DNA from: a virus
Taxonomy: Duplodnaviria; Caudoviricetes
Virus record (IMG/VR): IMGVR_UViG_3300044564_000065
Coordinates: 1 to 33,080 of that record
DNA length: 33,080 nucleotides
Reading direction: 5' to 3' (one strand)
The notes below the pieces were generated by a model that worked only from the letters and a program-made list of their open reading frames with translations, made no database searches and had not been told where the DNA came from. Both the position numbers and the translations under genes were made by a program. Numbering within the stretch: position 1 is the stretch's first letter; each line of letters begins with the position of its first letter. Below are positions 1 to 31,754 of this stretch, one piece after another.

Positions 1-1152
1 TTAAGCCTGGGCAAGCTTTCGCGAGATGGCGTCTTGCGCCTGCGCATAGGTGTCAAGATACGGGTTGAGGTAGTTGGTCTCGAGGACGTTGCTCCCGGCG
101 CTCCTCCCCTGCATCTGGTTTATGAGCCGAGAGTCGAGCCCCGCCCACTGGGCAAGCGTCGCGTACGTCGCCCGCATGCGGTTGAGCTGCACGAACGGCA
201 GCCCGTCGAGCGCCGCTCCTGGCTCGAAGAGGGCCTTCCACCGCTTCGGCACGTACGACGGCGTGAGCCGGTGCCCCGTGGGGACGTTACCTGCTGTGGC
301 GTGCCTCACGCTCTGGCATATCGGTCCCGTAGCTGCCACCTCGTGGAGGGGATCCGCGAAGAGCGGAGCCAGTGGCACGCGGCGGTACCGCCGGGAGTTC
401 TTCGGCTCCTTCATTCCGTCCTCTGCTGTGCACGCCGCCCGGATGGTGACGCATGCCGTCCAGTGCTCGCGTCCGTCCATGCCGAGGGCAGACGTCCAGC
501 CAATGTCCTCCCAGTCGAGCGCGAGCGCCTCGGAGCGCGAGAGCCCGCCGCCGCACATGACGGACCAGAGCGCGAAGAGCTGGGACTCGCGGAAGGGCTG
601 GCGAGACAACGCGGCCATGACCTCCCGTGGTCCCCACACGGGCAGCGGCGACGTGTCGCGGCGCGGGAGGCGGAAGCGGTAGCCCTCCATGGGAGACTCG
701 GATATTAGGTGGTCGAAGCGCGCCTGCGAGAGCACCGCGCGAAGCGTGCGCACATAGTTCGGGGCGCTTTGCGGCGGGAGCCGGTCAATCCAGCGCTGTA
801 CCGTGACGTTCGTCACGTCCGAGAGCTGCATCCTGCCGAGCGCCGGTGATATATGGGCGCGCCAGTGGGCGTCGTACGTCTTCGCGTTGGCAGCGGTGGT
901 CGACGCGTGGCGCCCAGGCGAGAAGGTTCCCCAGAAGTAGTCGTCGAGCGTCATGCCGGTCCCAAGCGCGGCGCATCGTCCCATCTCGTCAGCCAGGCGC
1001 ACGATCTCGGCGTCAGCGTCTGCCTCGGTGCCGTGCACCACGCGCGACTTGCGGCGCTTGCGTCCGTCGTCGCAGAAGCCGCTCGTGACGGCAATCTCCC
1101 AGACTCCCGGCCTAATCTGCCTCTTTGTGCCAAGCCGCCTGCGTTCTGCCAT
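1..1152 (-). CDS. int: Tyrosine recombinase/phage integrase with atypical catalytic motifs
   Basis: ATG at 1152 preceded by AAAGGAG; N-terminal arm-binding-like region (GVWEIAV..GRKRRKSRVVHGT), SAM-like core-binding region, catalytic domain (GLSRSEALALDWEDI, EPK, NRMRATYAT, TNY); stop TAA at 1-3; prophage-edge position. Confidence 0.88.
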   Translation of the reverse strand: MAERRRLGTKRQIRPGVWEIAVTSGFCDDGRKRRKSRVVHGTEADADAEIVRLADEMGRCAALGTGMTLDDYFWGTFSPGRHASTTAANAKTYDAHWRAHISPALGRMQLSDVTNVTVQRWIDRLPPQSAPNYVRTLRAVLSQARFDHLISESPMEGYRFRLPRRDTSPLPVWGPREVMAALSRQPFRESQLFALWSVMCGGGLSRSEALALDWEDIGWTSALGMDGREHWTACVTIRAACTAEDGMKEPKNSRRYRRVPLAPLFADPLHEVAATGPICQSVRHATAGNVPTGHRLTPSYVPKRWKALFEPGAALDGLPFVQLNRMRATYATLAQWAGLDSRLINQMQGRSAGSNVLETNYLNPYLDTYAQAQDAISRKLAQA

Positions 1153-1186
1153 AATGGCACCGTCTCCTTTCACATGTGGGGACAAG

Positions 1187-1225
1187 TCCCCCGCGCGGGT
1201 CCGCCAAGACATTCCGCGCGGGGGA
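1187..1225. terminator. 12-bp perfect inverted repeat between exonuclease gene and integrase (terminator/attenuator-like hairpin)
   Basis: TCCCCCGCGCGG (1187-1198) and CCGCGCGGGGGA (1214-1225), 15-nt loop containing CGCCAAGAC. Confidence 0.55.
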
Positions 1226-1237
1226 TAACTTTTCGAC

Positions 1238-2485
1238 TTACCTCGCCGATGCAACCCACGCCTTGTAAGCGCCGAACGCCGCAGCGGCGGCGAATATCAC
1301 GGCAAACACGCCACCTCCGACGCTCTCGGCCATGGACCCGGGGATGGCGAGCGCGAATACGAGCGCCAGGAGCGCCAGGACCACCGCCACGATGCGGAGG
1401 GCGACCGTGCGCGCCTTGCCGCTACCATTCCTCGGCGGCTCGGCCGCATCGGCTGGAGATGGCACGCGCCGCTCGGCGGCGCTTGCCTCCGGGGCTGGCG
1501 AGACGGAATCGCCCTCGGTGGCATCGGTCGTCTCGGGCTCCGGCTGCGCCTCCGGCATGGGCTCCGCGCCCACGAGCCCGAGGAATTCGCGCTCGGAAAT
1601 CGTGCGCACGCCCGTGACGTCCGCGTACTCCCTGGCCTTGCGCGCCTTCCCCGTGTTCTCTCCCGAGAGGTTCACGAGCGTCGTCACCTTCTTGGTGACC
1701 CCGTTCGAGAGCTTGGCGCCGTTCTCTGCCGCGAGCGCCATGGCGTCGTGCTGGCCTATCGTGGCACCCTCGCCCGTGAAGGCCATCGTCTCCCCCGAGA
1801 GCGGGCCGTCCTCGGCTTCGAAGCGCGCGAAGTCGCGGGCATCGGTGGACACCTCGAGCAGCGCCGACATCATGGCCTGGTGGGCTAGGCTGAGCGCCTC
1901 GGCGTCGCCCAGGGCGCGGTGCGCGTCGACATTTTCGATGCCGAACGCCTCGCAGAGATCGGAGAGCTTGCGGCCGCACGAGAAGAGCTTTGCCTCAGAG
2001 ACGGTGTCATACCATGGGTTGGGGCACGAGAGGTCGGTGGACGCCGCGCAGACGGACTCGACAAACCCCCTGTCGAAGTTTGCGTTGTGCGCCATGAGCG
2101 TAAGGCCGTCGCTGAACTTGAGGAAATCAGCCACTGCGTCATGCTCGCTCGGTGCACCCTTGAGCATCTCCGGCGTGATGTGGTTCACCTCCTGCGCGTC
2201 GCGCGAGATCTTGACCCCGCAGTCCGCGAAGGACTGGAAGGTGTCCATGACCTCGTCATCGATTACCTTCACGCCGGCAATCTCGACAATTCCGTCCTTG
2301 TGCGGGTCGAGCCCGGTGGTCTCGGTGTCCATGGCCACATACGAGTGCGGAAGCTTGGCAACGCACGTACTGCCAAGGTACGGCGTGTGGTTGAGCAGTC
2401 CTACGAGCTGAGCGGCATCCTTCATGGTTTCCCCTAACCAATTGCCAATACGTATACGAGGCGCCACGCGGCGCCGGTGTGCCAT
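1238..2485 (-). CDS. DEDDh (DnaQ-like) 3'-5' exonuclease + BRCT domain + C-terminal transmembrane anchor
   Basis: Exo I VAMDTETTG, Exo II AHNANFD, Exo III HRALGDA; BRCT LSGETMAFTG..VTKKVTTLV..GKARKA..ISEREF; Pro/Glu-rich linker; two hydrophobic helices at the C-terminus; alternative start at 2425. Confidence 0.85.
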   Translation of the reverse strand: MAHRRRVAPRIRIGNWLGETMKDAAQLVGLLNHTPYLGSTCVAKLPHSYVAMDTETTGLDPHKDGIVEIAGVKVIDDEVMDTFQSFADCGVKISRDAQEVNHITPEMLKGAPSEHDAVADFLKFSDGLTLMAHNANFDRGFVESVCAASTDLSCPNPWYDTVSEAKLFSCGRKLSDLCEAFGIENVDAHRALGDAEALSLAHQAMMSALLEVSTDARDFARFEAEDGPLSGETMAFTGEGATIGQHDAMALAAENGAKLSNGVTKKVTTLVNLSGENTGKARKAREYADVTGVRTISEREFLGLVGAEPMPEAQPEPETTDATEGDSVSPAPEASAAERRVPSPADAAEPPRNGSGKARTVALRIVAVVLALLALVFALAIPGSMAESVGGGVFAVIFAAAAAFGAYKAWVASAR

Positions 2486-10764: not shown

Positions 10765-12119
10765 GCGCCAACGCCAGGCGCCCAAGGGTGTGGCGCAACG
10801 CCCGCGGAACGTGGTGCGCACAGGTGTACCTGGGCACGGCACCGGACGGCCGCAAGGTGCGGCCCTACCGCACGCTCCCAGACGCGGGCTCGGAGGAGGA
10901 GGCGCGCCGCCTGGCCGAGGAGTGGGTAGCAAGCCTCACGGCCGGGGGCGAGTCGGTGCGCAGCACGCTCGTCTCCGACCTGCTCGACGCCTACGTCGAG
11001 GACCGCGCCGCGAAGGACGTCGCGCCGAACACGGCGCGGCAGTGGAGGACTTTCGCACGCGCATACGTTGACCCGTACATAGGCGGGAGGATCGCGCAGG
11101 AGGTCACCGCGCACGACCTCTCGGCGCTCGAGTCGCGCCTGCTGGCACCCAGGGAGCGCGGCGGGCGCGGCCTCGCGCGCGGCACCGTGCGCGACGTGCA
11201 CACGTTCCTCTCGCTCGCCTTCGACAGGTGGGTCGGCATGGGCATATGCGAGTCCAACCCCATGCGGAGCGTAACGAAGCCCCGCGCGGACAGGCACGAG
11301 GCCGTGGCCGTGGATGAGTGGGACTTCGCGACGCTCGACGCCGCGCTCGCGGACAGGGTGCTCTCATCCCCCGGGGACGGCGGGGACGCCACGAGGTGGC
11401 TCTCCGCCTGGGCGGCGTGGCTCGCCCTCCACACCGGGATGCGCCTTGGCGAGACGTGCGCCGTGCGCAGGCGCGACGTTTCAAGGAGGCTCGGCCGGGT
11501 GCGCGTGTGCGGGAGCGTCTACGAGCCGGGGGGCGGCGCGGAGCCTGTTCGCGCCGACACCAAGGGCCGCAGGAGCCGGAGCGTCTCGCTCACCGAGCGC
11601 GAGCTCGACATGGTCGGCGAGGTCGTGCGGATGCAGGACTCGCGCGCCGGCCGTGCGCTTCCTCCGGACTCCCCGCTCGTCACGCTCGACGGCTCGATCG
11701 CGCGCCCGTCGACCGTCTCCCGGGGATTCTCGGCGATACGCGACGCCTGCGGGCTCCCGCGCGGCTGCACGTTCCACAGCCTGCGGCACACGCACGCGAC
11801 GTGGCTCCTGCTCTCCGGCGTGGACGTCAAGACCGTCTCCGAGCGTCTGGGGCACGCCGACGAGGCCATAACCCTGCGCGTGTACGCGCACGTGATGCCC
11901 GGGCGCGACCAGGCGGCCGCCGCCGCGTTCGAGCGCTTCGCGGACGAGGCGAGGGGCGGCGTCGACGGGTGCAAGCGGGGTGCAAGCGGGCGGGAGCCGC
12001 CGCCATCATCGGATGGCGCCATAGCCGCAGGTGGTGGCGCGCGTACGGGGCCTCATGGCTCCGCCCCCAGGCATAAAACAGGTAAGAATCCGACAGACGC
12101 GGGAAAGAGGGCAAAATGA
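10761..12119 (+). CDS. Second tyrosine integrase-family recombinase embedded in early operon
   Basis: GTG start overlapping upstream stop; arm-binding-like N-terminus, TGMRLGE, TKGR, FHSLRHTHAT, LGHAD, VYAH: complete R-K-H-R-H-Y set. Confidence 0.9.
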   Translation: MSANARRPRVWRNARGTWCAQVYLGTAPDGRKVRPYRTLPDAGSEEEARRLAEEWVASLTAGGESVRSTLVSDLLDAYVEDRAAKDVAPNTARQWRTFARAYVDPYIGGRIAQEVTAHDLSALESRLLAPRERGGRGLARGTVRDVHTFLSLAFDRWVGMGICESNPMRSVTKPRADRHEAVAVDEWDFATLDAALADRVLSSPGDGGDATRWLSAWAAWLALHTGMRLGETCAVRRRDVSRRLGRVRVCGSVYEPGGGAEPVRADTKGRRSRSVSLTERELDMVGEVVRMQDSRAGRALPPDSPLVTLDGSIARPSTVSRGFSAIRDACGLPRGCTFHSLRHTHATWLLLSGVDVKTVSERLGHADEAITLRVYAHVMPGRDQAAAAAFERFADEARGGVDGCKRGASGREPPPSSDGAIAAGGGARTGPHGSAPRHKTGKNPTDAGKRAK

Positions 12120-19367: not shown

Positions 19368-20507
19368 ATGCCCACAATCAGGGAGCAGTTCGAGCAGGCG
19401 AAGGCGGACTTCGCCGCCGCCTTCAAGGCAGGCGACGCCGAGAGGGCCAGGGAGGCCGGCGAGCTCGCGGAGAAGTACGAGGCCATCGTCAAGATGGCAG
19501 ACGAGAAGGGCGCCAAGCTCAACTCCGGCGCCACCGTGCGCCACTCCGTCGCGCGCGGCACGTTTGGCGAGTGGGCCGCGAAGTCCCTCGACCTCTCGGC
19601 CTTCTCCGGCCGCAGCCAGGCCAGCATCGTGACCACGGACGGCTTCAAGGCCGCCACCGACCCCGTCACCGCGCCCGCGGCAGCCGCCGACTACAGCACA
19701 TACCTCGACCAGACCGTGGTCCAGGCGCCGCGACGCCGCCTCCAGGTGCGCGACCTCTTCGGCTCCGAGTCCCGAGACTCCAGCACCGTCGAGTGGCTCG
19801 TCGAGGGCGCCGTCGAGGGCGCGCCCGCCGTCGCAAAGGAGGGCGCCGCGCTCTCCCAGTACCACTTCGCGGAGCCGGAAAAGAAGACCGCGGCCCTCGA
19901 AAAGGTCGGCGGGTTCTACCGCGAGTCCTACGAGATCGTGACCGACCAGGCTTGGCTCGCGAGCTCCATCAACGACCGCGGCCTCTACCTCCACGACCTC
20001 ACCGTGGAGGACAAGCTCGTCTCCGACCTCTCCGCGACCGAAGGCGTGCAGACCGCGACCACCAAGAGCGCAGCGCTCGCGGACGCCATCTTCCAGGCCA
20101 TCACCAACGTCGGCAGCGCGACGCCGTTCATGGCCGACGCGGTCGTGCTCAACCCCGCCGACTACCAGACGCTGCGCCTCGCAAAGGACACCAACGGGCA
20201 GTACATGGGAGGCGGCTACTTCTCCGGCCAGTACGGCACGCAGGGCGGCCTCGTCCTCTATCCGGACGTCTGGGGCCTCACGACCGTGGTCACATCCGCG
20301 GTCGCGGCCGGCACGCCGTGGGTCGGCGCCTTCAAGGCGGCCGGCTCCGTCTTCACACGCGCCGGCGAGGGCCTGCGCGTCGAGATGACCAACTCCGACA
20401 AGGACGACTTCGAGCACGACCTCGTGGCCATCCGCGTCATCGAGCGCCTCAAGCTCGCCGTCCGATACCCGGCCGGCTTCGAGAAGCTCACCATCTCCGA
20501 GGCATAG
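19368..20507 (+). CDS. Major capsid protein (HK97 fold)
   Basis: AGAAGGAG RBS; N-terminal coiled delta-like domain; LNPADYQTLRLAKDTNGQY, DLVAIRVIER..VRYPAGF. Confidence 0.92.
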   Translation: MPTIREQFEQAKADFAAAFKAGDAERAREAGELAEKYEAIVKMADEKGAKLNSGATVRHSVARGTFGEWAAKSLDLSAFSGRSQASIVTTDGFKAATDPVTAPAAAADYSTYLDQTVVQAPRRRLQVRDLFGSESRDSSTVEWLVEGAVEGAPAVAKEGAALSQYHFAEPEKKTAALEKVGGFYRESYEIVTDQAWLASSINDRGLYLHDLTVEDKLVSDLSATEGVQTATTKSAALADAIFQAITNVGSATPFMADAVVLNPADYQTLRLAKDTNGQYMGGGYFSGQYGTQGGLVLYPDVWGLTTVVTSAVAAGTPWVGAFKAAGSVFTRAGEGLRVEMTNSDKDDFEHDLVAIRVIERLKLAVRYPAGFEKLTISEA

Positions 20508-28620: not shown

Positions 28621-29055
28621 ATGGCAGACCAGTACGTGGACCGGAGGACGGTGGGGATACCCGCCGACGTCGAGCTCGTGCGCGACGAGGTCGAGGGCAT
28701 GCGCGACGCCGCCTCGGCCTCCGAGGCGTCGGCGTCGCAGAGCGCGGACGCGGCGGGCAAGAGCGCCGCGGGGGCCGAGCTCAGCGCGCGTGAGGCGGCG
28801 ACGCTCGTCGCGGCCATCAACGGCCTGCGCGTGGGGCCGACCGAGCCGGAGCTCCACAGCAGGACGGAGCACATGCTCTGGGTCAGGACGAGCGACGACC
28901 TCGCCACCGTCAGCGCCCTGCGCGTGTGGGACGCCGGCGCGGCGGGCGACGCGACCTGGCCGGGGGCCTCGACGTACCCCGGCGCCGCGCTCTACCCGAT
29001 GATCGAGGGCACGTGGGTCACGGCGAGGCTCGCCGCCGCGTGCCTGGCAGGATAG
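28621..29055 (+). CDS. Putative tail fibre-associated protein
   Basis: Ala/Ser coiled region, VGPTEP..LWV, TWPGASTYPGAALYP. Confidence 0.55.
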   Translation: MADQYVDRRTVGIPADVELVRDEVEGMRDAASASEASASQSADAAGKSAAGAELSAREAATLVAAINGLRVGPTEPELHSRTEHMLWVRTSDDLATVSALRVWDAGAAGDATWPGASTYPGAALYPMIEGTWVTARLAAACLAG

Positions 29056-29076: not shown

Positions 29077-29448
29077 ATGGCAGACAGCACCAGCACCAAC
29101 GACCTGACGTACACCCCCACGACCTGGGCGGACGGCGCAGACGGCGGCACCGCCATCACGGCGGCGAGGCTCAACAACATCGAGCAGGGAATCAACTCCG
29201 CGAGCAAGCAGGTCAACGCCAACACGAAGAGCATCAAGACGCTCGGGGATTCCGTATCCCAGGTGCAGGCCATCGGTGTGAACAAGATCAAAATCGGAAT
29301 CCTGAGCACGGGGAGGCTGGTGATCTCGTTTCATCTCGAGGACGGCTCGTCATACAATCTCATGTGCAGCAGCACCGAGCTGTGGCTTGACCACTATGAC
29401 TCCAGCGGCACAGGCACGACCCTCTGGGAAATTGTGCCGTCGAAGTAG
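29077..29448 (+). CDS. Tail fibre/receptor-binding protein: constant N-terminus plus currently expressed variable cassette V1
   Basis: AAGGAG RBS; YTPTTW..AITAARLNNIEQGI fibre-type N-terminus; crossover core at 29249-29261 encodes D-S-V-S-Q. Confidence 0.78.
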   Translation: MADSTSTNDLTYTPTTWADGADGGTAITAARLNNIEQGINSASKQVNANTKSIKTLGDSVSQVQAIGVNKIKIGILSTGRLVISFHLEDGSSYNLMCSSTELWLDHYDSSGTGTTLWEIVPSK

Positions 29449-29449
29449 C

Positions 29450-29709
29450 ATTCCGTATCCCAGAGGCTGCCGTTCACGAGCAATTCCCCCGTGTCGGACT
29501 TCGACGACCTGACCACGACGGGCTTCTACTCCGTGGAGGGCACGCACTCGCCCTCCGGCAGCTCAAGCGTCTGGTACTCCGTCCTCGTGATGCAGATCGC
29601 GGGCAACTCGGCCTACGTCACGCAGCTTGCCATGGCCACGGGCGTCAACTCGGGCGCGTGGCTGCGCACCATGGACGGAGGCACGTGGGGCAGCTGGGCG
29701 AAGCTGTAG
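29450..29709 (+). other. Silent variable cassette V2 (81 aa, pyocin-knob-like fibre domain)
   Basis: SVSQ-RLPFTSNSPVSDFDDLTTTGFYSV..YVTQ..WLRTMDGGTWGSWAKL*. Confidence 0.8.
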
Positions 29710-29710
29710 C

Positions 29711-29904
29711 ATTCCGTATCCCACTTCGGAATCGGGGGACGCGTGGCAGGTATGCGGTTCTTGTGCGACGACACGACGGACAGCAGGCTGACGATGCAGG
29801 TGACCTTCACTAACGGCAACTGGTGGGCCATCAACTTCTACAAGGATGGAATATTCGTCTACGACTACGCGACGGACACATCGAAGTCCGTGAAACTCGC
29901 CTAG
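29711..29904 (+). other. Silent variable cassette V3 (59 aa)
   Basis: SVSH-FGIGGRVAGMRFLCDDTTDSRLTMQVTFTNGNWWAINFYKDGIFVYDYATDTSKSVKLA*. Confidence 0.8.
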
Positions 29905-29905
29905 C

Positions 29906-30048
29906 CTACTGGTCCCACATGATGGAGCCTATCGCGGTGGAGTCCAGGTAGAAGGTCAGCCTGAAGGGCGCCTTTGTCGTGTCCCAGGCGACGCTGACGA
30001 AGTGCCCTCCGTCCCGCGTCCTGATGGACGCGAGCTGGGATACGGAAT
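29906..30048 (-). other. Silent variable cassette V4 (42 aa)
   Basis: SVSQ-LASIRTRDGGHFVSVAWDTTKAPFRLTFYLDSTAIGSIMWDQ*. Confidence 0.8.
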
Positions 30049-30057
30049 GCCATTGCC

Positions 30058-30254
30058 TTATTGCGACTTATTCCAGGTGGCTATCACATCAGAGCCTTTG
30101 TAGAGGTATATGGCGGCTGCGGAGACCGCAACCTGGTATCTTGTCCCGTTAACAACCGTAATGAGTTGCACAGGCGCGCCTTCATTTCCGGACACCTGTG
30201 CTGAGGCAATCTGTCCTATAGGCGCGTAGACTTGCACGCTTTGGGATACGGAAT
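30058..30254 (-). other. Silent variable cassette V5 (60 aa)
   Basis: SVSQ-SVQVYAPIGQIASAQVSGNEGAPVQLITVVNGTRYQVAVSAAAIYLYKGSDVIATWNKSQ*. Confidence 0.8.
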
Positions 30255-30255
30255 G

Positions 30256-30407
30256 CTACACGCTTGGGAAGGTGGCCTTCACCTGCCAGACGCAGGCGTC
30301 GTTTACATACACGCGAAAGTACCAGACTCCTGATACGCTGGCCCAGTCAAAGGAGACGTTTTGGTCTCCATTCATGGAGCGGACCTTATTCAGCTGGGAT
30401 ACGGAAT
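30256..30407 (-). other. Silent variable cassette V6 (45 aa)
   Basis: SVSQ-LNKVRSMNGDQNVSFDWASVSGVWYFRVYVNDACVWQVKATFPSV*. Confidence 0.8.
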
Positions 30408-30417
30408 GCCCCTTGCG

Positions 30418-30614
30418 TCATTTACTCCATACCTGGGTGCCGCTCGACGAGTTGTCGAACCGGTCCAGGTGGAGAGACGTCCGCTCCGCCACGAGCCTGA
30501 ACTCCTGGCCGCCTTCGAGCTTGAACGCAATGTACAGGTACGGGCTGTCCGCCGACCCGGACGAGCTGAAGACCATCGACTCGACCCCGACCAGCTTAAC
30601 CTGGGATACGGAAT
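30418..30614 (-). other. Silent variable cassette V7 (60 aa, paralogue of V1)
   Basis: SVSQ-VKLVGVESMVFSSSGSADSPYLYIAFKLEGGQEFRLVAERTSLHLDRFDNSSSGTQVWSK*. Confidence 0.8.
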
Positions 30615-30615
30615 G

Positions 30616-30794
30616 CTACGAGTCCACGCGGCCAAACGCGGTACCGTCCGTCTTGGTGTACAAGTAGGCCTCTCTGCCGTCCTCCAGGGTGAGCCGTATG
30701 ACCACGGGGTTGTCCTTCGTGCTGAAGATGTTGACCTCCGAGATGACGTTCCCGCCCCCAGCGTAGATGAAGCCTACCTTCTGGGATACGGAAT
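30616..30794 (-). other. Silent variable cassette V8 (54 aa)
   Basis: SVSQ-KVGFIYAGGGNVISEVNIFSTKDNPVVIRLTLEDGREAYLYTKTDGTAFGRVDS*. Confidence 0.8.
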
Positions 30795-30795
30795 C

Positions 30796-31671
30796 CTACC
30801 CAGCCGACAGCACGGCGTCCCCGAAGCGCCGCTGCGCCGCGCGGAAGACGTCCACCGAGCGCGCCACGTAGCGCGAGTAGCACATCTCGACCGAGGTGTG
30901 TCCCATCTCCATGGCCACGGTCTCTATCGGCACCCCGGAACCCACGGCGATGGTGGCCCAGGAGTGCCGCAGGCGCTCGGCGCACATGTCCAGGCCGTGG
31001 CGGCGGAACCACCGCCGCATGCGCCCGTAGATGGCGGAGGGCCGCATGGCGCACAGCAGGTCGCGCCCGGACGGGCGGAGCCGGCGCCTGAGCTCGCGCA
31101 GGCGTGCGAGCGCGTAGCGCGGCAGGACCACGGTGCGCCTGCCCTTGGCGGTCTTGGTGCCCCAGACGCGCGTCTCGCCGCCCACGTCGTGCCTGCCCTT
31201 GTCCACGCGGACCTCCCCGGTGCGCAGGTCGAGGTCGCCCCACGTGAGCGCCGCGGCCTCGCACGGCCTGAGGCCGCACGAGGACTGGACGAGCGCGACC
31301 GCCTCCCAGGGCTCGCCCTGCCACGCCAGGGTGCACCTGCGGAGCTCTCGCGCCGTGAGCGTGCGGGCCTCGCGCACGGGGACGGGCGGCAGCTCCACGT
31401 CGTCGGTCTCGCACCAGATGCGCAGGCGGTACGTGCGGATGGCCCAGCGGAGCACCTGCCGGAGCGTCTTGTGGGCCTTGGCGGCGGCGCCGTAGGACAT
31501 GCCCGAGACCCACTCCTGGACGTCCGCGTGGCGTATGTCCTCCAGCTGCATGCCGCTCCAGCGCGGCAGCAGGTGGCACCTGGCGGCGCTCTCGTATCCG
31601 GCGTACGTGTTGGGCCTCACCTTGGCCCGCTTGGCGTCGAGGTATGCGGCGAGTACGGAATCGAAGAGCAT
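30796..31671 (-). CDS. Tyrosine recombinase, putative shufflon invertase
   Basis: GGAGG RBS then ATG at 31671; GLRPCEA, TKTAK, ERLRHSWAT, MGH, RY; no arm-binding domain; stop codon is 1 bp from the last repeat. Confidence 0.9.
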   Translation of the reverse strand: MLFDSVLAAYLDAKRAKVRPNTYAGYESAARCHLLPRWSGMQLEDIRHADVQEWVSGMSYGAAAKAHKTLRQVLRWAIRTYRLRIWCETDDVELPPVPVREARTLTARELRRCTLAWQGEPWEAVALVQSSCGLRPCEAAALTWGDLDLRTGEVRVDKGRHDVGGETRVWGTKTAKGRRTVVLPRYALARLRELRRRLRPSGRDLLCAMRPSAIYGRMRRWFRRHGLDMCAERLRHSWATIAVGSGVPIETVAMEMGHTSVEMCYSRYVARSVDVFRAAQRRFGDAVLSAG

Positions 31672-31682
31672 CTTAACCTCCA

Positions 31683-31734
31683 AAAATCCCAGGGCGTGAC
31701 GGTCCCCCCATCATGGGCCGCGCGCTGGGATTTT
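31683..31734. promoter_or_regulatory. Inverted repeat between recombinase and lysis genes containing ATCCCAG arms
   Basis: AAAATCCCAG (31683-31692) and CTGGGATTTT (31725-31734). Confidence 0.55.
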
Positions 31735-31754
31735 GGGAAGGGAGGGCGGCACGG

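What the first reader, a model, noticed from the sequence alone, without database searches (positions are those of the whole stretch)
29077..31671. Eight-cassette tail-fibre shufflon driven by a dedicated tyrosine recombinase
Seen: a gene of only 123 aa has a roughly 60-aa constant N-terminus ending in the core ATTCCGTATCCCA. Seven more identical cores follow, each opening a stop-terminated 42-81 aa frame in the same phase (S-V-S-Q/H), and each cassette ends 1-10 bp before the next site or, for V3/V4, the opposing stop. Three cassettes face right, five face left, they converge at 29904/29906, and a tyrosine recombinase gene ends 1 bp from the last site. Known analogues: R64 Rci shufflon (pilV tips), p15B Min tail-fibre inversions (serine invertase) and the Bifidobacterium prophage Rin shufflon. 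Inference: inversion between any + and - site swaps the C-terminus of the receptor-binding protein, giving 8 tips and up to 6!x7x2 = 10,080 arrangements if all sites recombine. The site sequence, the miniature fibre and the probable Coriobacteriia host may be undescribed.
Basis: partly seen in the sequence, partly recalled or inferred. Interest (0 to 1): 0.95.

Follow-up and report, generated by a model that had tools for sequence, protein, structure and literature searches.

The report
Eight-tip Rin-type phage fibre shufflon
A gut phage keeps eight interchangeable ends for one very small fibre protein between repeated DNA sites; near-identical phages from pig and cattle gut carry these ends in other orders, likely reshuffled by the enzyme next door to change which bacteria it can likely bind, but this kind of switch, with the same site sequence, is already described.

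Summary
The array does rearrange. Contigs of near-identical phages in pig and cattle gut show four other orders; 11 of 13 and 8 of 10 joints fall on the sites. Database proteins carry the identical 58-aa constant part with other tips. It is not new in kind: this is a Rin shufflon (Bifidobacterium, 2018), and the same 'ttccgtat' site was reported in Eggerthella (Coriobacteriia) prophages in 2022. This scan has also noted such systems on other DNA. Not found in the papers searched: the miniature predicted trimeric fibre; a site rule in which only the expression site has a fully symmetric arm (34/35 versus 0/174); a conserved inverted repeat before the recombinase gene (87/110 loci); and single tips 90-97% identical in DNA between phages whose recombinases are 46-67% identical. 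Recombinase activity, receptor binding and tail-versus-head position are inferred, not shown.

The parts
28621..29055 (+). 144-aa upstream gene that travels with the miniature constant region; candidate docking partner (inferred)
   Evidence: 19 of 22 loci with a constant-region hit also hit this gene, and all 19 loci hitting it have the constant (overlapping loci not merged; the 3 exceptions are one genome)
29077..29250 (+). Constant N-terminus (Rc), 58 aa: anchor motif plus predicted coiled-coil helix (residues 29-59)
   Evidence: phrog_5711 'head fiber protein' E 7e-14, phrog_2012 'minor tail protein' E 0.006
29245..29261 (+). Site 1, the expression site: GGGA-TTCCGTA-TCCC, the only fully symmetric site in the array
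29251..29448 (+). V1, expressed tip in this assembly (65 aa from S; five predicted beta strands)
29450..29709 (+). Site 2 and silent tip V2 (85 aa)
   Evidence: phrog_3971 E 1.5e-7
29711..29904 (+). Site 3 and silent tip V3 (63 aa); left half of the fixed facing pair
29906..30048 (-). Site 4 and silent tip V4 (46 aa); right half of the fixed facing pair
30058..30254 (-). Site 5 and silent tip V5 (64 aa); lowest GC3 (0.55); absent site-to-site from a pig-gut relative
   Evidence: X2 record 3 runs unbroken from constant to recombinase without V5
30256..30407 (-). Site 6 and silent tip V6 (49 aa)
   Evidence: a V6-like tip is fused to an identical constant in P0125
30418..30614 (-). Site 7 and silent tip V7 (64 aa); expressed tip in run X2
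   Evidence: joint 29264/30598
30616..30794 (-). Site 8 and silent tip V8 (58 aa); expressed tip in run X4
   Evidence: joint 29262/30780
30796..31671 (-). Rin-type tyrosine recombinase, 291 aa, core-binding plus catalytic domain, no arm domain; R135, K173, R235, H236, H258, Y268
   Evidence: Pfam PF14659 at 3-58 and PF00589 at 124-271; residues invariant in 39 of 39 aligned homologues
31679..31738 (.). Conserved inverted repeat directly upstream of the recombinase gene; arms carry the site's right-arm motif ATCCCA, and one arm overlaps the GGAGG at 31677-31681; candidate Rin operator (inferred)
   Evidence: I22; present in 87 of 110 loci with fixed length

Best explanation
This is a Rin-type shufflon whose eight tips occur in different orders in near-identical phages, and the adjacent armless tyrosine recombinase likely inverts the DNA between oppositely facing sites to fuse one tip at a time to a 58-aa constant stalk, giving a predicted trimeric mini-fibre that likely changes which host surface the virion binds. 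Shown: the anatomy, the rearranged orders with joints at the sites, and proteins with the same constant and other tips. Inferred: each site is a 7-bp overlap (TTCCGTA) between two arms; the right arm travels with the tip and the left arm stays with the upstream DNA. Only the constant's left arm (GGGA) mirrors the right arm (TCCC), so the expression site is likely the preferred partner; inversions using that one site alone can reach all 10,080 orders. Silent tips lack a start and are read only when moved to site 1.
For: Orders read from contig pieces: X2 C-7,8,3><4,6,2,1-rin on one unbroken contig; X3 8,3><4,7,6,2,1-rin; X4 pieces C-8, 8-2 and 4><3,1-rin; X6 1,8,2,6,7,3><4,5 from a separate bovine study. 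11 of 13 joints and 8 of 10 have both ends within 8 nt of a core, against 2.2% by chance. All these orders are reachable by inversion, while only 0.1-0.2% of signed orders are. P0123 and P0125 have a 100% identical constant with other tips; 31 of 36 homologues have the D-S-V/L-S junction. Loci picked by recombinase alone: 8 of 11 have at least 2 sites downstream, and one has TTCTGTA in all three sites, as expected if overlaps must match. All 245 cassettes in 42 loci are open for at least 40 codons in the S-V-S frame. Collinsella L135 and L189 share 10 cassettes in different order with the central pair kept. Trimer model: score 0.89, best control 0.01, pLDDT 90, runs agree in at least 90% of contacts; the mark was reached by 20 of 30 solved homodimers and 1 of 23 monomers, and this three-copy job is unlike that calibration.
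Against: No recombinase activity was tested. All rearrangement evidence is from assembled contigs, not raw reads. X1, the possible source run, shows only the window's order. X2-X5 are one study, and the relatives differ by 1-3% and in cassette content, so order differences between samples could be old rather than ongoing. Two of the 8 site-joints have sides under 30 nt. The first His of the H-x-x-R motif is Glu232 here and is not His in any of 39 homologues. The strongest profile match of the constant is a 'head fiber' family. 3 of 11 recombinase-picked loci show no site in the DNA held.
Confidence: 0.82

Rival explanations
1. The shufflon is real but varies a capsid (head) fibre or side fibre used for mucus or reversible adhesion, not the primary tail receptor-binding protein.
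For: Residues 11-62 match phrog_5711 'head fiber protein' at E 7e-14, far better than tail families (E 0.006 and 0.076). The protein is only 104-143 aa. The constant does not hit the about 165-aa Rc of Bifidobacterium-type loci.
Against: The gene lies at the end of the tail module, after tape measure, Dit-like and minor tail genes, and far from the capsid gene at 19368. The same site and recombinase serve unrelated constants of 43-365 aa, some of the type that Mavrich et al. link to lactococcal receptor-binding proteins.
Confidence: 0.12
2. The different orders come from homologous recombination between related phages or from assembly error at short repeats; the recombinase is a bystander or is inactive.
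For: Relatives show mosaic alleles: V1 differences cluster at 29303-29375 and V8 has another 3' end. Two joints swap the partner of V3 at the convergence point, where there is no site.
Against: The letters shared across each joint are only 14-19, shorter than the 31-letter words of these contigs. Orientation flips keep the V3><V4 pair and the converging layout. Site arrays and the recombinase co-occur: 44 of 46 long loci with at least 3 sites have it, against 1 of 75 with fewer (overlapping loci not merged).
Confidence: 0.04
3. The cassettes are independent small genes, and the repeats are regulatory or translational signals.
For: Coding-like GC3 (0.74-0.94 in seven of eight); a few have internal Met codons.
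Against: None has a start at its 5' end; five face against the late operon; no promoter-like site was found; database proteins show them fused to the constant.
Confidence: 0.02

Closest known systems
Rin shufflon of Eggerthella lenta clade-1 prophages (Buttimer et al. 2022, PMC8778435; passages and section 21 part 1 of 2 read, figures not seen)
   Same: Coriobacteriia host class, tyrosine recombinase next to tandem Rv cassettes and an Rc gene, and the same repeat 5'-ttccgtat-3'. The recombinase of a locus in Eggerthella sp. AM16-19 (L176) is 44% identical.
   Different: There Rc is 'much larger' and Rv often have H-type lectin domains; here Rc is 58 aa and the tips have no Pfam match above cut-off. 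The parts read report no arm rule, upstream inverted repeat or within-lineage rearrangement. L176 was not shown to be one of the paper's clade-1 prophages.
Rin shufflon of Bifidobacterium breve/longum prophages (Mavrich et al. 2018, PMC6109161; passages and section 8 read)
   Same: Armless tyrosine invertase, converging Rv array, dissimilar tips (6-30% there, 15-37% here), 11-bp rix that differs at 2 positions (TTCCCTAACCC versus TTCCGTATCCC). Loci carrying that rix have recombinases 35-39% identical to this one. Phage PMBT6 has the intermediate TTCCGTAACCC.
   Different: Rc 168 aa and Rv 95-100 aa with 5 tips there; 58 aa, 42-81 aa and 8 tips here; no similarity between the constants. The named Rin proteins were not fetched: the comparison is with loci that carry the published rix.
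R64 Rci/sfx shufflon (as summarised in PMC11852207; passages read)
   Same: Tyrosine recombinase, 7-bp core, conserved right arm and variable left arm, C-terminal swap.
   Different: Plasmid pilV adhesin. Rci has an extra C-terminal domain; this 291-aa enzyme ends 23 residues after Tyr268. Here one site, the expression site, is symmetric.
p15B Min, Mu Gin, P1 Cin (as described in PMC6109161)
   Same: Inversion swaps the C-terminus of a phage fibre.
   Different: These use serine recombinases; this locus has a tyrosine recombinase.

Membership tests
Rin shufflon (Mavrich 2018; Buttimer 2022) | Tyrosine recombinase without arm-binding domain flanking the array, distinct from the prophage integrase | tested here: met
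   PF14659 starts at residue 3, PF00589 follows; only local 26% and 37% matches to the window's two other integrases; groups with 38 site-associated recombinases and close homologues, support 89/86, not starred
Rin shufflon (Mavrich 2018; Buttimer 2022) | Short asymmetric rix repeat before each cassette, one inside the constant gene, rare elsewhere | tested here: met
   8 exact cores only in the array; contains the published ttccgtat
Rin shufflon (Mavrich 2018; Buttimer 2022) | Tandem, mutually dissimilar C-terminal cassettes in frame with a constant N-terminus | tested here: met
   (15-37% pairwise)
Rin shufflon (Mavrich 2018; Buttimer 2022) | Alternative orders with breakpoints at rix | tested here: met
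   (contigs only)
Rin shufflon (Mavrich 2018; Buttimer 2022) | Varied protein is the tail receptor-binding protein | tested here: inconclusive
   Tail-module position and trimer model support a fibre; best profile is 'head fiber'; no significant fold match
Rin shufflon (Mavrich 2018; Buttimer 2022) | The recombinase catalyses the inversions | not testable with these tools
   Also described as putative in the sections read of both papers
Bifidobacterium-type Rin subgroup | rix TTCCCTAACCC and about 168-aa Rc | tested here: not met
   Site differs at 2 of 11 positions; the constant is 58 aa and hit none of the site-bearing loci listed
Min/Gin/Cin invertons | Serine recombinase | tested here: not met
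   Tyrosine family
Integron | IntI integrase with folded single-strand attC cassettes | tested here: not met
   TIGR02249 24 bits against a cut-off of 265; the repeats are 13-19-bp sites

The most novel reading that the evidence does not exclude
Rin shufflons are not closed switches but an integron-like trading network. The one symmetric expression site lets Rin excise and capture single tips, so Coriobacteriia phages with unrelated fibres and distant recombinases draw on one shared pool of site-bounded receptor tips, while Rin limits its own expression through the inverted repeat ahead of its gene.
Probability: 0.3. Interest if true: 0.62.

Novelty: new member of a known kind. Interest (0 to 1): 0.3.

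Why it matters
As a system it is known. Its value is as a test case for the question Mavrich et al. left open: how an armless tyrosine recombinase inverts rather than deletes. The family data give a concrete, testable site model (7-bp overlap, conserved right arm, one symmetric hub) and a candidate operator. The 104-143-aa fibre with natural swappable heads is a compact tool for finding the surface receptors of Coriobacteriia, for which almost no phages are described. A compact multi-site invertase could also join Rci in combinatorial DNA shuffling. If single tips do move between phages through Rin, receptor specificity in this class would evolve as a shared cassette pool.

Tried and rejected
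A single-protein scan of IMG/VR for close recombinase relatives found none. Sequence search of the PDB with the fibre and with P0152 gave 0 hits. Fold searches of the monomer model gave no match at E <= 0.001 in PDB or BFVD and a best VIA Z of 6.2, in the noise range; this does not show a new fold. Pfam found nothing above cut-off for the 8 tips or for 14 homologues. ESM Atlas hits for the fibre were under 0.9; those for the upstream gene were 0.91-0.92 but unnamed. Rfam and promoter scans were blank, and the inverted repeat did not score as a terminator. The capsid search gave no host name. Run X8 holds only low-depth fragments. Contig breaks and short loose ends at the sites in X5 and X7 hint at mixed orders within a sample, but most are under 31 letters and may come from related phages, so they are not counted. 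The covariation of the inverted repeat cannot separate an RNA hairpin from a DNA operator, and the set was chosen for having the arms. Site-to-site ends of shared cassettes are expected after any transfer followed by shuffling, so they do not prove Rin-mediated capture. The locus counts include overlapping windows of one contig; 14 loci (12 such duplicates and 2 with a different site) were dropped before the counts.

Full report
Observation. The window is a 33-kb temperate phage record (integrase and repressor-like genes at the left, HK97 capsid, tape measure, Dit-like and minor tail genes, then holin). Eight exact ATTCCGTATCCCA sites lie between 29249 and 30794, three on + and five on -, with none elsewhere; chance gives 0.23 matches even at two mismatches. 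Each opens an S-V-S-Q/H frame of 42-81 further residues, packed 1-10 bp from the next site, and the recombinase stop is 1 bp from site 8. The array is lower in GC (about 0.55-0.64) than its flanks (about 0.74). Tips are 15-37% identical to each other. Inversion between any + and - site reaches 10,080 orders, with V3 and V4 always facing each other.

Evidence of rearrangement. Twenty public runs hold part of the region; eight were laid, all as contigs. X1 may be the source and shows only the window's order. In the pig-gut study, X2 has one unbroken contig reading constant-V7, V8, V3><V4, V6, V2, V1, recombinase, with V5 missing from site to site. X3 reads V8, V3><V4, V7, V6, V2, V1, recombinase. 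X4 has constant-V8, V8-V2 and a flipped centre V4><V3, V1, recombinase. In a separate bovine study X6 reads V1, V8, V2, V6, V7, V3><V4, V5, with all eight tips and few differences. Of 13 joints, 11 have both ends within 8 nt of a core; the other two mark a variant V8 end. Of 10, 8 do, two of them with sides under 30 nt; the other two put an unknown cassette opposite V3. Chance per joint is 2.2%. The observed orders all fall in the 0.1-0.2% of signed orders that inversion allows. Proteins agree: of 36 homologues of the 123-aa product, 31 have the junction motif; P0123 and P0125 have an identical constant with other tips; V5 (97%) and V6 (96%) sit on constants 77% and 84% identical.

The family. 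Pattern scans of IMG/VR and GTDB gave 42 non-redundant loci, this one included, with a related recombinase (36-45% identical) and at least three sites. All 245 closed cassettes are open for at least 40 codons in the same frame, and 34 of 42 arrays are simply converging. Named hosts are Collinsella, Olsenella, Eggerthella and Enteroscipio. To avoid selecting on the site, 301 genomes of the class were searched with the recombinase: 10 matched, giving 11 loci, and 8 of these have at least two sites within the 1.5 kb or less held downstream; one has TTCTGTA in all three sites. The closest named recombinase is from an Atopobiaceae MAG (76%), so the host is probably Olsenella-like; this rests on one mobile gene, GC content and gut habitat.

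Mechanism. Read as arm-overlap-arm, a site is left arm, TTCCGTA, TCCC. The left arm is GGGA, the mirror of TCCC, at 34 of 35 constant-gene sites, 0 of 174 inner sites and 4 of 35 recombinase-side sites (three of four letters: 35, 32 and 32). This holds across unrelated constants of 43-365 aa, which suggests selection on the DNA and not only on the Gly/Arg-Asp codons; the search patterns fixed part of one site per locus, so some bias remains. It resembles the Rci/sfx layout of a 7-bp core with a variable left arm (PMC11852207, passages). I infer that the expression site is the preferred partner; inversions using it alone still reach all 10,080 orders. The catalytic R, K, R, H, H and Y268 are invariant in 39 of 39 homologues, while the first His of H-x-x-R is replaced family-wide. 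The product is predicted as an anchor, a helix (29-59) and a five-strand head (pLDDT 81.6) and as a homotrimer (0.89 against 0.01; mark reached by 20 of 30 solved homodimers and 1 of 23 monomers; job unlike the calibration). Whether it sits on the tail or the head is open, since the constant matches a 'head fiber' PHROG best. Loci with this miniature constant have shorter tips (median 75 versus 102 aa) and nearly always the upstream 144-aa gene.

Two further features. First, an inverted repeat of fixed length lies just before the recombinase start in 87 of 110 loci. Its arms contain ATCCCA and switch to AACCCA in loci with the Bifidobacterium rix; L127 and L243 break the pattern (AACCC site with ATCCC arms; one mismatched arm). 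This suggests a Rin operator, but an RNA hairpin is not excluded. Second, 33 of 861 locus pairs share a cassette at 88% DNA identity or more, 7 of them with recombinases under 70% identical, and only 4 pairs share the whole smaller array. In five such matches the similarity runs from site to site. L154 holds 5 of the 10 cassettes of L189. Tips are therefore gained and lost singly; whether Rin or homologous recombination does it cannot be told here.

Comparison with what is known. Mavrich et al. 2018 defined Rin in Bifidobacterium prophages (PMC6109161; passages and section 8). Buttimer et al. 2022 reported it in E. lenta prophages with the repeat ttccgtat (PMC8778435; passages and section 21 part 1 of 2). 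Loci with the Bifidobacterium rix encode recombinases 35-39% identical to this one (44 of 48 loci with at least three sites), in one group apart from the window's integrases (support 89/86). The site and host class are therefore in print. Seven searches found no other paper on Rin. Passages of PMC9881135 and bioRxiv 2025.05.09.652943 add nothing on it. Figures and supplements of these papers were not seen and may hold more, and subscription journals are not covered. Earlier notes of this scan describe Rin-type loci on other DNA; none resembled this recombinase by sequence.

Verdict. A real, rearranging eight-tip shufflon and a new member of the known Rin kind. Interest 0.3. The untested extras (hub site, operator, cassette trade, miniature fibre) are what could raise it.

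Noticed in passing
L025, L049, L051, L060 (viral contigs of 39-130 kb, GC about 0.40): Low-GC phages use the same site and a 37% identical recombinase but have two convergence points, with back-to-back sites 25 bp apart (10 bp in L049). Their recombinases group with that of Enteroscipio (L184; 100/99), and some tips are 55-68% identical to tips of high-GC loci. Host unknown.
   Followed up: partly
L027 versus L033: 100% identical over 4,780 bp up to a site, then L027 has three extra cassettes and a recombinase only 68% identical: the recombinase side looks swapped at a rix site.
   Followed up: partly
window 31654-31661: A partial site (ATTCCGTA, minus strand) lies in the first codons of the recombinase gene; the pig-gut strain differs at 31654.
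   Followed up: no
window 29303-29375 and 30619-30644: Relatives differ by dense clusters of substitutions inside V1 and by a replaced 3' end of V8, while the rest is about 98% identical; the changes are not A-specific, which suggests recombination between alleles.
   Followed up: partly
L126 (Bifidobacterium phage PMBT6) and L127 (ctl617): Both carry Rin-like arrays with the intermediate site TTCCGTAACCC, annotated only as integrase and hypothetical proteins; PMBT6 has three sites all in one direction.
   Followed up: partly
window 1-1254 (-) and 10773-12119 (+): Two further tyrosine recombinases in the same phage, one in the middle of the early region, so three in all.
   Followed up: no
window 1238-2485 (-): ORF that by its sequence looks like a DEDDh exonuclease fused to a BRCT-like domain and a membrane anchor, between integrase and repressor (label from recall, not scanned).
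   Followed up: no
L044: An 11-site array with two cassettes duplicated exactly: tandem duplication or an assembly effect.
   Followed up: no
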